The translations under genes and the position numbers were made by a program. The notes under the pieces are model-generated. The model made no database searches, was not told the origin of the DNA, and was given only the letters and a program-made list of their open reading frames with translations. From Octopus sinensis (Eukaryota): a stretch of 64,000 bases of DNA. Shown here piece after piece: positions 14,001-16,609 of this stretch. Positions within the stretch are counted from its first letter, which is position 1. Each line of letters begins with the position of its first letter. The DNA is taken from the NCBI RefSeq assembly GCF_006345805.1, contig NC_042998.1, positions 146,072,001-146,136,000 on the forward strand, in the 5' to 3' direction.

Positions 14001-16609
14001 AGGTTCTTAATTTAGAAAATAGCAAAGTATACAAATTTTTCCCTATTAAAATATTACAGCTCTGTAACTAAGTACATATAATCAACAACCTACACAATCT
14101 CAAAAAAATTAAAAAAAGGACAGGGAAACTTACTACCAGCATCTGAAAAACGACAATTAAGGGGAGAATATATATACAGCTAAATATATAACATCTAACT
14201 ATATACATACACTATTTAGACTACAAACTTGACTACATATCTTTATAGAAATTATAAAGCAAAGGTAGAGACCAAGCTCCTCCAATAATTTCTTACACTG
14301 ATAATGCAGTATTTGTAGTCAGTCAGATACTGATTACAACTAAAAAGTCCATAAAAAAAAAAACTATTCAGTTGTAAAGAAAAAATCTTACCTGTGAAAA
14401 ATTGAGCAATCTCTTCTTTTGAACATCCAAATGGCAATCCTCTCATCCTTACCACAGCATCACTTTGACCAGTCACCTGACTGGATCCAGCTCGCTTGAT
14501 AACCCAATCCATCTCGCTTTTCTTAGATCTGAAGACTACAAACGGTTAGATTGAAAGCAATGTCGTTAGAAACCCAAATCCTTACTTTCCCCATTCCTAA
14601 ATCTCCACAAGAATTTACAGTAAATGTGAAGAATCATAGATCAATTTCAAAGATATGAAGAATGTAAAAAAGACATGGTTTTCTAGAAATACTAAAAAAC
14701 GAATTTATTTTACTATGGTGATGCTACAAACAAGATGTCCAGTATTTTGTCAATGATTCTAATTAAACATTCAGTTATGTCTGCTTCCCAGCCAAATGGT
14801 TTGAGGTTCATCCCATGGCATGGCACTTTGGCAAATGCCTACTATAGCCCCAGGGTGATGGAAGCCTTGAGTAGCTGTAAACTAGTGCCACTAATTTACA
14901 ATATTCTGTAAAAGTACATGTCTAACCACAGGGAAGTATCTTGCTTGGCAGCAAACAAAAGGGCATTCAGCCATAGAAATCTGCCTTGAAAAACAAGCAT
15001 AAAAAATGAAAACTAAACTTCAGATTAGAAACACAAATACATCCATGTAAGATCACATTAAAAGAAATTGCTGTCTTAGAGATACACCAACAATGACAAA
15101 CCTTTAAACTGCTGCCTCAATTGGAAGTATTTCATTCCTAATGTTGTGAAAACCTGTATCCATGGAGGAATAATACCTTGCCTTGAAATAGGTGAGGGTT
15201 GGCAACAGCAAGGGCATCTAGTTAAACATGCATCGAATTCCATGTGACTCATGAATGGAAGCTGGATACTAGCATTTCCCTTCCTGAAGTAAATATTTCA
15301 TTTCCGCTTCAGTACTTCAAGTAAACCATGCTTTTTTTTTTATACATTCCAATTATTTTCGAAATTGTGCCTTAATTTCCACATTTCCCAAATTTTTTAT
15401 ACCTTACCTTCAATGTATCTCTGACCCATATGAGCATTATTCTTTTTCAATGCCAGTTCCTTGTCCTCGTTACTGACAAACTCCACAAAAGCCTCACCAC
15501 TAGGTCGACCCTCTCTTGAATAAGTGAAGTGAACTCCCATTTCCTCACCATAAACTCGGCAACCTGTTGGAAATGGAAGGCAGATCCAAATAGACTCCCA
15601 CCATTTAAGATATTCAGCAAATCTCACAAAAAAAAAAAGTACATTTTTACAACTGCACCAACCTCCCTTTTCTACAGTTTTGATAGTTTCAAACAAACCT
15701 GACCATCAAAAATTTTTCACCTTTAAAGTGAGATCAATGTAACAGTAAAAATTTAACCCGTGTGGGAACTTACGTTTACCCTAAAATGTTTTTGCTGCTC
15801 TAAACCAGTGGTTCTCAACTGGGGATCTACAATAGTATTTTAAGGGCCCTTGAAAAAATTTTGCTGTAGCTGTATTGCCAGAAACGGCTGTGTTTCAGCC
15901 TACACAAGTTAATGTGAGGGGGGAAAAAAATAGGAATTTTGAAGAACGTTTCCACAAATGTCTGCGAATCTACCAGAATAAAATAGTAATCAAAGGGGTC
16001 CATAGATAAAAAATTATTGAGAACCCTTGCTTTAAACGAATCCGACCGTCAAAACCGTTCATTAGGTAAATTAATCCTTTAAATTAGATAGATATATAAA
16101 TTGATTAGGTAAATGTCCGACACTGGTGTCACAACAAATGTAGAAGATTTTTTTTTTCATTCTCGAGTTCAAGGACTCATAAAACCGGTTAGCCGGTTTC
16201 CATGACTTGAGTTCGCAACATTGCCTCTGAAATGGACGCCGGTCCGTTACATGGTTCAAAACCAGCTATTTTAAGTGGAGAGGATTAAGTCGATTTACAT
16301 CAACTCCAGTACTTTAGTACTCTTATCGATCCCGAAGGGATGAAAGGAAGAGCTAAGCTCGGCAAGATTTGAAAAAGCTACCGAGTACAGAAATGGCAGT
16401 AATTACATTGTTTTTGATGCGTTTTCCTTCTCTAGATAAATCACTGCCTCTAAAATTAAAAACGGATGTAATACTAAAAATTTCCAAGTTTTATAGTCCA
16501 AACCTTCAAAGAACTTGAGAACATCTGAGGCTGTGGCAGCCCATGGAAGACCACGGAGTCGCACAACACATCCCTCGTCGTCATTATGTTGATCTTGCTG
16601 CTGTTGCAT
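10947..16609 (-). CDS. HNRNPH1: hnRNP H/F family protein (glorund-like; 3 qRRMs plus Gly-rich domains): complement join(16504..16609,15408..15563,14392..14535,13367..13505,11949..12154,11623..11855,11400..11532,11145..11321,10947..11042); terminal exon/stop unresolved
   Basis: Nine GT/AG exons in consistent phase. qRRM signatures: VVRLRGLPW / [11 protein letters not shown] / [29 protein letters not shown] / GLEIVPNGI / [10 protein letters not shown] / [19 protein letters not shown] / [10 protein letters not shown] / [11 protein letters not shown]. Start context GTCACC-ATG. The symbol stands for the H/F family, not strict orthology to one vertebrate paralogue. Confidence 0.95.
11145..11321 (-). 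CDS. HNRNPH1: hnRNP H/F exon, qRRM3 end and Gly-rich tail
   Basis: tttctctag acceptor, A|gtaagt donor, 177 nt; [15 protein letters not shown] followed by GGM/GGY repeats. Confidence 0.92.
11400..11532 (-). CDS. HNRNPH1: hnRNP H/F exon, qRRM3
   Basis: tttgcag acceptor, C|gtaagt donor, 133 nt. Confidence 0.93.
11623..11855 (-). CDS. HNRNPH1: hnRNP H/F exon, GYR linker and qRRM3 start
   Basis: ttttgtag acceptor, GAT|gtaagt donor, 233 nt. Confidence 0.93.
11949..12154 (-). CDS. HNRNPH1: hnRNP H/F exon (YIEIF...RPGPYDR...GRNVK)
   Basis: ttttag acceptor, AAAG|gtgggt donor, 206 nt; RPGPYDR PY-NLS-like motif. Confidence 0.93.
13367..13505 (-). CDS. HNRNPH1: hnRNP H/F 139-nt qRRM2 exon (GLEIVPNG...RLGHR), candidate regulated cassette exon
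   Basis: G-rich acceptor gggacgggtgtgtag, CAG|gtggga donor. Confidence 0.94.
14392..14535 (-). CDS. HNRNPH1: hnRNP H/F exon, qRRM1 end and qRRM2 start
   Basis: tttgtag acceptor, ACAG|gtaaga donor, 144 nt; [11 protein letters not shown]...AQFFT. Confidence 0.94.
15408..15563 (-). CDS. HNRNPH1: hnRNP H/F exon, qRRM1
   Basis: ttccaacag acceptor, GAAG|gtaagg donor, 156 nt. Confidence 0.94.
15806..16029. mobile_element. hAT (Charlie-type) MITE in an hnRNP H/F intron
   Basis: Ends CAGTGGTTCTCAA / TTGAGAACCCTTG; 8-bp TSD ctctaaac / ctttaaac. Confidence 0.8.
16504..16609 (-). CDS. HNRNPH1: hnRNP H/F first coding exon ([35 protein letters not shown])
   Basis: ATG at 16609, GAAG|gtttgg donor; upstream acceptor candidates at 16669-16670 and 16634-16635. 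Confidence 0.92.

What the first reader, a model, noticed from the sequence alone, without database searches (positions are those of the whole stretch)
14120..14168. Candidate 9-nt microexon inside qRRM2 of hnRNP H/F
Seen: the minus strand reads ctcccCTTAATtgtcgtttttcAG|ATGCTGGTA|GTAAGTttccctg. That is a branch-point-like CTTAAT, a pyrimidine tract, an acceptor, 9 nt (14142-14134) and a perfect donor. Inclusion keeps the frame and changes FFT-G-LEI to FFT-DAGR-LEI, just after helix 1 of qRRM2 and directly upstream of the G-run exon. Inference: a tissue-specific (possibly neural) microexon, or a decoy/recursive site that tunes the weak downstream acceptor. Standard annotation would miss it.
Basis: partly seen in the sequence, partly recalled or inferred. 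Interest (0 to 1): 0.7.

Follow-up and report, generated by a model that had tools for sequence, protein, structure and literature searches.

The report
Skipped microexon-like site in octopus hnRNP-H
An intron of the octopus gene for the splicing regulator hnRNP H/F holds a 9-base exon-like signal next to a predicted strong RNA hairpin, but every spliced form recovered skips it, so it is more likely a silent look-alike than a working exon, although rare or tissue-limited use remains untested.

Summary
The motif is there: acceptor, 9 nt at 14142-14134 (minus strand) and a GTAAGT donor, inside the 886-nt intron 3 of an Octopus hnRNP H/F gene. It is in frame, in the loop after helix 1 of qRRM2. 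Alone it is modestly above chance: 0.4-5% for this intron, 0.08-3.3 expected per window. Use was not seen. Contigs of 4 runs from 4 studies all join exon 3 directly to exon 4; none of 275 homologous segments carries a short insert, though only one full-length cephalopod protein was among them. Contigs drop minor forms and the tissues are unknown. The UGC typical of neural microexons is absent, and there is no AG|GT recursive site. New here: a predicted 20-bp, sense-only hairpin (14210-14168) abuts the acceptor region and buries three upstream AGs (0 of 5000 local shuffles). The downstream 139-nt exon has G-runs on both flanks in 12 of 12 other animal loci, like the self-regulated human HNRNPH1 exon 4. 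Odds: silent 0.45, decoy 0.27, coding microexon 0.23. Cephalopod conservation could not be tested.

The parts
14392..14535 (-). Upstream coding exon (exon 3, 144 nt), ends in helix 1 of qRRM2, phase 1
   Evidence: (joints); 100% identical peptide in P0001
14215..14219 (-). CTAAA, possible distal branch point just upstream of the hairpin (77 nt from the acceptor, about 34 nt if the hairpin is looped out); inferred
14168..14210 (-). Predicted 20-bp uninterrupted RNA hairpin, 3-nt loop, 6 G-U pairs, folds on the sense strand only; buries the AGs at -39, -54 and -58
14156..14161 (-). Branch-point-like hexamer (weak form, A at -15)
14143..14152 (-). U-rich tract and AG acceptor; 37 nt free of AG upstream; no UGC within 100 nt
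14134..14142 (-). Candidate 9-nt cassette, in frame, no stop; skipped in all contigs seen. A weaker GT at 14136 would give a 6-nt in-frame form
14128..14133 (-). GTAAGT donor hexamer
13561..13566 (-). UGCAUG (Rbfox-type motif, label recalled) about 55 nt upstream of exon 4
13506..13520 (-). G-run acceptor of exon 4 (two GGG in place of a pyrimidine tract)
13367..13505 (-). Exon 4, 139 nt, rest of qRRM2; skipping would shift the frame
13340..13366 (-). Exon 4 donor followed by three G-runs

Best explanation
The 9-nt element is an exon-like pair of splice signals in intron 3 of the octopus hnRNP H/F gene that is skipped in every spliced form recovered and is likely a silent look-alike with no effect on the protein. 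The spliceosome joins exon 3 directly to exon 4 (shown in 4 of 4 runs). Without a UGC enhancer, with a weak and close branch point and a donor that pairs only on its intron side, a 9-nt exon is too short to be defined by itself and would be ignored (inferred). The regulation expected at this intron lies 628 nt downstream: hnRNP H would bind the G-runs on both sides of the 139-nt exon 4 and lower its own output by blocking that exon, as described for human HNRNPH1 (inferred from conserved architecture, not tested in octopus). On this reading the hairpin is either a decayed TA-rich fold-back or serves something other than this acceptor.
For:: the only splice joints in contigs of X1, X2, X6 and X10 (4 studies) are the three canonical ones; no letters between joint sides; intron 3 is bridged across 14134-14142 by one unbroken contig in each run; of 275 helix-1 segments in 355 stored proteins, 260 keep the exact spacing, none has a short insert, 15 diverge (read-through, skipping, fragments, one 19-residue insert in a hypothetical tick protein); the O. 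bimaculoides protein cluster has one member, without the insert. F134, G136 and E138 are invariant in 23 of 23 sequences; no UGC upstream; 74-79% of SRRM3/4 microexons have one (10.1101/2024.09.17.613571, section 10); 0.08-3.3 such sites expected per window; looser look-alikes occur in 5 of 12 other animals' intron 3 and in intron 1 of this gene.
Against: The site is rare for this intron (P 0.004-0.05), is in frame and stop-free, and falls in a loop that is not one of the RNA-binding loops 1, 3 and 5 (PMC5449602) and that varies in length in qRRM1 and qRRM3. The adjacent hairpin is unlikely by composition (0 of 5000 local, 1 of 400 intron shuffles; longest stem 8-12 bp in 15 other introns), needs six G-U pairs that work only on the sense strand, and ends where the acceptor signals begin. 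The negative read evidence is weak: contigs drop minor forms, tissues are unknown, 29 loose ends and 103 pieces were not displayed, and only one full-length cephalopod protein was available.
Confidence: 0.45

Rival explanations
1. Structure-presented decoy. The hairpin would hide three competing AGs and leave the branch region and tract open, so U2AF and U1 load on the 9-nt element without finishing splicing, competing with the weak G-run acceptor of exon 4 and promoting intron 3 retention as an extra brake in hnRNP H self-regulation; inclusion would be rare.
For: Hairpin significance and position; branch region and tract predicted mostly unpaired, 0.73-0.97; the true acceptor of this intron is a G-run site; decoys may rarely splice and so be invisible to junction counts (PMC6097662, passages); stems that hide cryptic AGs or shorten branch-to-AG distance are known in yeast (PMC12350175, passages).
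Against: Described decoys are mostly in introns over 1 kb, 29-56 nt long in SF3B1, mostly stop-bearing and highly conserved (PMC6097662); here the intron is 886 nt, the exon 9 nt and stop-free, and conservation is untested. No partial-splicing branch survives in any of 4 contig sets. Retention around exon 4 would be expected from the G-runs alone.
Confidence: 0.27
2. Genuine lineage-restricted coding microexon, included in a minority of transcripts or in certain cells, that would add three residues to the helix 1 - strand 2 loop of qRRM2 and alter domain packing or partner binding rather than G-tract recognition.
For: 9 nt, in frame, stop-free, GTAAGT donor, 37-nt AG-free zone, one UCUC at -25; loop position; hairpin next to the acceptor.
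Against: Never the main form in 4 of 4 runs; no such isoform among 275 homologous segments or in the O. bimaculoides entry; no UGC and no CUAAY next to the acceptor; loop length fixed in 260 of 260 continuous qRRM2 sequences; no matching element in intron 3 of 12 other animal loci.
Confidence: 0.23
3. Recursive splice site or alternative donor that extends exon 3 to 14134 and introduces a stop.
For: The extended exon would carry a premature stop, a common poison mechanism in RNA-binding protein genes (established knowledge).
Against: No AG|GT junction, so no classical recursive site; use of the donor alone should break the intron contig at 14134, and it is unbroken in 4 of 4 runs.
Confidence: 0.05

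Closest known systems
SRRM3/4 (eMIC, Srrm234)-dependent neural microexons
   Same: 3-27 nt, frame-preserving, strong intronic donor, long AG-free zone, a UCUC upstream
   Different: No UGC, no CUAAY near the acceptor, tract directly against the AG instead of set back; inclusion and neural specificity not shown
Decoy exons of retained introns (SF3B1 intron 4, OGT, ARGLU1; PMC6097662)
   Same: Internal splice-site pair in an intron of a splicing-factor gene, not seen in ordinary junction data, with a second nearby donor
   Different: Intron under 1 kb, exon 9 nt and stop-free; conservation, U2AF binding and effect on retention untested
HNRNPH1 exon 4 autoregulation (10.1101/686956)
   Same: Frame-shifting exon of qRRM2 with poly-G motifs on both flanks; same 3' boundary in vertebrate read-through peptides; G-runs on both flanks in 12 of 12 other animal loci
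   Different: No skip junction seen in octopus contigs; that human exon 4 is this 139-nt exon is recalled, not taken from a call; no microexon upstream appears in the passages read
Yeast 'downstream stems' between branch point and acceptor (PMC12350175)
   Same: Stem that would hide cryptic AGs and shorten branch-to-AG distance
   Different: Predicted only; sits at an internal site in a metazoan intron; needs the unproven distal branch point at 14219

Membership tests
SRRM3/4 (eMIC) neural microexon | 3-27 nt, frame-preserving | tested here: met
SRRM3/4 (eMIC) neural microexon | Spliced into mRNA | tested here: inconclusive
   absent from contigs of 4 of 21 listed runs; contigs drop minor forms
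SRRM3/4 (eMIC) neural microexon | UGC between branch point and AG (74-79% of members; not strictly required) | tested here: not met
   10.1101/2024.09.17.613571 section 10
SRRM3/4 (eMIC) neural microexon | Long AG exclusion zone and strong donor | tested here: met
   37 nt free of AG; GTAAGT, but 0 of 3 exon-side matches
SRRM3/4 (eMIC) neural microexon | Strong CUAAY branch point set back from the AG | tested here: not met
   TTAAT with A at -15; nearest CTAA is at -77 behind the hairpin
SRRM3/4 (eMIC) neural microexon | Neural-specific, eMIC-dependent inclusion | not testable with these tools
   runs carry no tissue labels; no raw reads listed
SRRM3/4 (eMIC) neural microexon | Conservation of exon and flanks in relatives | tested here: inconclusive
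   no cephalopod DNA beyond near-identical runs; none in 12 distant animal loci; one search found no related intronic ORF
Decoy exon | Lies in a retained intron, usually over 1 kb | tested here: inconclusive
   886 nt; unspliced intron contigs in 4 of 4 runs, but contig depth cannot rank parts of a gene
Decoy exon | Splice sites required for retention; U2AF bound | not testable with these tools
   needs minigene or CLIP
Decoy exon | Usually non-coding (stop or frameshift on inclusion) | tested here: not met
   in frame and stop-free
Recursive splice site | AG immediately followed by GT | tested here: not met
   acceptor followed by AT
hnRNP H/F gene | Three qRRMs with Gly-rich linkers | tested here: met
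HNRNPH1-type autoregulated exon | Frame-shifting exon with G-runs at both splice sites | tested here: met
HNRNPH1-type autoregulated exon | Skipping rises with protein level and is cleared by NMD | not testable with these tools
   no skip joint; such RNA would be unstable

The most novel reading that the evidence does not exclude
Octopuses added a hairpin-gated 9-nt cassette to the ancient G-run feedback exon of hnRNP H/F: a 20-bp G-U-rich stem hides three rival AGs and brings a distal branch point within reach, defining a UGC-independent microexon that either inserts three residues into an otherwise length-invariant qRRM2 loop or acts as a decoy holding intron 3 unspliced; in an animal with very high ADAR activity, editing of that stem could tune the switch.
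Probability: 0.2. Interest if true: 0.65.

Novelty: new member of a known kind. Interest (0 to 1): 0.3.

Why it matters
If used, it would be an unannotated control point in a master splicing regulator and an example of a microexon or decoy defined by RNA structure instead of the SRRM4/UGC code, testable with existing raw octopus RNA-seq. If silent, it is a reminder that an AT-rich 64-kb window yields about one such look-alike. The firmer by-product is that the G-run architecture around the 139-nt exon is kept across distant animals, which suggests that hnRNP H self-regulation known from human lymphoma genetics is very old.

Tried and rejected
No whole genome is held for this window. The run search listed 21 runs, none on record as RNA and none as raw reads: no RNA holder listed; 4 were laid, the DNA run of a third organism label (X16) was not. 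Contig depths gave intron 3 shares of 5.0, 5.8, 75 and 7.0% against 3.0, 2.2, 15.5 and 2.4% for intron 2, but the tool states that contig depth cannot rank parts of a gene and DNA may be present, so this is not counted as evidence. No listed variant falls in 14128-14210, but only one substitution is listed in the whole intron, so this says nothing on conservation; no majority A-to-G change is listed in the hairpin. An intronic ORF over the site was searched to catch cephalopod relatives: not in the collection, one 36% hit at E 7e-4 judged noise. A temperature switch was rejected: the hairpin holds to 75 C in prediction and a second stem over the exon is weaker than most shuffles (867-897 of 1000 fold as well). 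Rfam gave three sub-threshold microRNA-like matches, none at the site. A bivalve-like locus (L074) has an in-frame 9-nt look-alike in intron 3 with unrelated sequence, absent from the similar L076; treated as chance. One search failed on a pattern error and was rerun. Earlier-findings look-ups returned nothing. The inclusion isoform was not modelled.

Full report
Setting. The minus strand from about 16670 to 10900 encodes an hnRNP H/F protein with three qRRMs. Exon 3 is identical in peptide to the Octopus bimaculoides protein P0001, but the window differs from it at three or more residues elsewhere, so the window is from a close Octopus relative. Exon 3 ends at 14392, intron 3 is 886 nt, and exon 4 spans 13505-13367.

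Observation. The described element is present at the stated coordinates. Inclusion would keep the frame and replace Gly136 by four residues, in the loop between helix 127-133 and strand 139-145 of the predicted structure. The donor matches only on its intron side, the branch-like hexamer is weak and close (A at -15), there is one UCUC at -25, 37 nt are free of AG, and there is no UGC in 100 nt. Shuffles give P 0.004-0.05 for such a site in this intron under strict, after-the-fact criteria, 0.18 under loose ones, and 0.08-3.3 expected sites in the whole window against 1-2 seen. Intron 1 of the same gene has a 7-nt AG-to-GTAAGT look-alike with a poor tract.

Is it spliced? The run search listed 21 runs, all kept as contigs and none labelled RNA. 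I laid 4 of them, one from each of 4 studies, on 11900-15650. All four show the exon 2-3, 3-4 and 4-5 joints, so they hold spliced RNA. The exon 3-4 joint skips the full 886 nt, no letters lie between joint sides, and one unbroken contig crosses the candidate in each run. The only other joint is a single low-depth non-canonical one in X6. Thus inclusion is not the main form, and neither splice signal is used alone often enough to leave a branch. This does not exclude a minor form: contigs drop rare variants, a 9-nt bubble is what assembly cleaning tends to remove (recalled), tissues are unknown, and 29 loose ends and 103 pieces were not displayed.

Proteins. Three homology searches and three cluster look-ups gave 355 stored proteins with 275 helix-1 segments: 260 keep the exact spacing to the PNG motif, none has a short insert, and 15 diverge through intron read-through, skipping or truncation, one being a 19-residue insert in a hypothetical tick protein. 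Only one full-length cephalopod protein was among them; its cluster has a single member, shared by two RefSeq accessions. The residues around the site are invariant in 23 of 23 aligned sequences, whereas the same loop varies in length in qRRM1 and qRRM3. RNA binding by qRRMs uses loops 1, 3 and 5 (PMC5449602, one passage), so an insert here would spare the G-tract site (inference).

Other animals' intron 3. A metagenome scan kept 80 of 186 loci. Twelve distinct loci had both exon edges recognised by my patterns (L060 dropped as a duplicate of L036; L041 and L042 missed by the pattern; the rest were transcripts, partial or distant). None has an element like the octopus one; 5 of 12 have some loose AG-to-GTRAG pair, one (L074) of 9 nt in frame with unrelated sequence. 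No cephalopod was among them, so conservation where it matters is untested. In contrast, exon 4 is 136, 139 or 142 nt with GGG in the last 20 nt of intron 3 and the first 12 nt of intron 4 in 12 of 12, and read-through peptides from other octopods keep both flanks nearly unchanged. This matches the poly-G motifs around human HNRNPH1 exon 4, whose skipping shifts the frame and is self-regulated through NMD (10.1101/686956, passages); that the human exon is this same exon rests on recall and on the shared 3' boundary in vertebrate read-through peptides.

Folding the region shows a 20-bp uninterrupted stem at 14210-14168 with six G-U pairs, -19.4 kcal/mol on the sense strand against -3.2 on the antisense. 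None of 5000 local shuffles and 1 of 400 block-shuffled introns reach 20 bp; the longest stems in the gene's three neighbouring introns and the 12 foreign introns are 8-12 bp. Of 8 stems of 16 bp or more on both strands of the window, the other 7 are CA, TG or TA microsatellites or close to them; this one has TA-like outer arms too, so a decayed repeat is possible. The stem ends 25 nt before the acceptor, contains the three nearest upstream AGs, and has a CTAAA just before it; the branch region and tract stay mostly unpaired in prediction. Stems that hide cryptic AGs or shorten branch-to-AG distance are documented in yeast (PMC12350175, passages). The stem was found after the fact and is only predicted, but two uncommon features side by side is the main reason not to dismiss the site.

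Weighing. Real microexons are rare per intron (recalled, of order 1%), so a site with a 0.4-5% chance rate starts near even odds or worse; the hairpin raises the odds of a real splice signal, while missing UGC, fixed loop length and absence from contigs and annotation lower the odds of a coding exon in particular. I put silent look-alike at 0.45, decoy at 0.27, coding microexon at 0.23, poison donor or recursive site at 0.05. These are judgements, not computed values. Shown: the signals, the direct exon 3-4 joint, the conserved G-run exon. Predicted: the hairpin and the loop position. Inferred: all mechanisms.

Literature. Read: 10.1101/2024.09.17.613571 (abstract, sections 3 and 10), PMC8797185 (passages), PMC6097662 (passages), 10.64898/2026.09.05.749416 (abstract and passages; includes O. 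bimaculoides, no occurrence of 'hnrnp' in the main text; supplements not seen), PMC11565970 (passages, nothing on hnRNP H). Searches listed no paper on an octopus hnRNP H/F microexon or on invertebrate conservation of the exon 4 feedback; most hits were seen as listings only and subscription journals are largely missing. The 2019 paper on the origin of the eMIC domain was not held.

Verdict. If real it is a new member of a known kind, with a structure-gated twist. Interest 0.3.

Noticed in passing
window 13340-13520 (-); loci L036, L038, L052, L056, L062, L063, L069, L074, L076, L077, L078, L079: Exon 4 length class and G-runs at both splice sites are kept in 12 of 12 distant animal loci, suggesting that HNRNPH1-type self-regulation is ancient.
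   Followed up: partly
window 12223-12300: A 25-nt, 92% complementary inverted repeat in intron 4, ending about 70 nt before exon 5; possible dsRNA or editing substrate; only sub-threshold Rfam matches.
   Followed up: partly
window 11153-11139 and 11042-10930 (-): The end of the last annotated coding exon holds a GTAAGT donor whose 15-nt context matches the candidate and its donor at 14 of 15 (post hoc). A further Gly-rich exon-like stretch follows at 11042, while RefSeq reads through the donor to a stop: probable alternative C-terminus.
   Followed up: no
window 15780-15768 (-): A 7-nt AG-to-GTAAGT look-alike with an A-rich upstream stretch in intron 1; used as a chance control.
   Followed up: partly
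window 18120-18070 (-): Probable non-coding first exon of the hnRNP gene with a GTAAGT donor at 18076; inferred from sequence only.
   Followed up: no
window 13566-13561 (-): UGCAUG about 55 nt upstream of exon 4, inside the intron end that other octopods keep.
   Followed up: no
run X6, window 12150-14400: Unspliced contigs of introns 3 and 4 are deeper than the spliced joints in this run only; contig depth is not a reliable measure, so left unexplained.
   Followed up: no
window 8724-8897 (+): Last exon of a convergent neighbouring gene with an EF-hand-like peptide, resembling MICU1 (label recalled, not tested).
   Followed up: no
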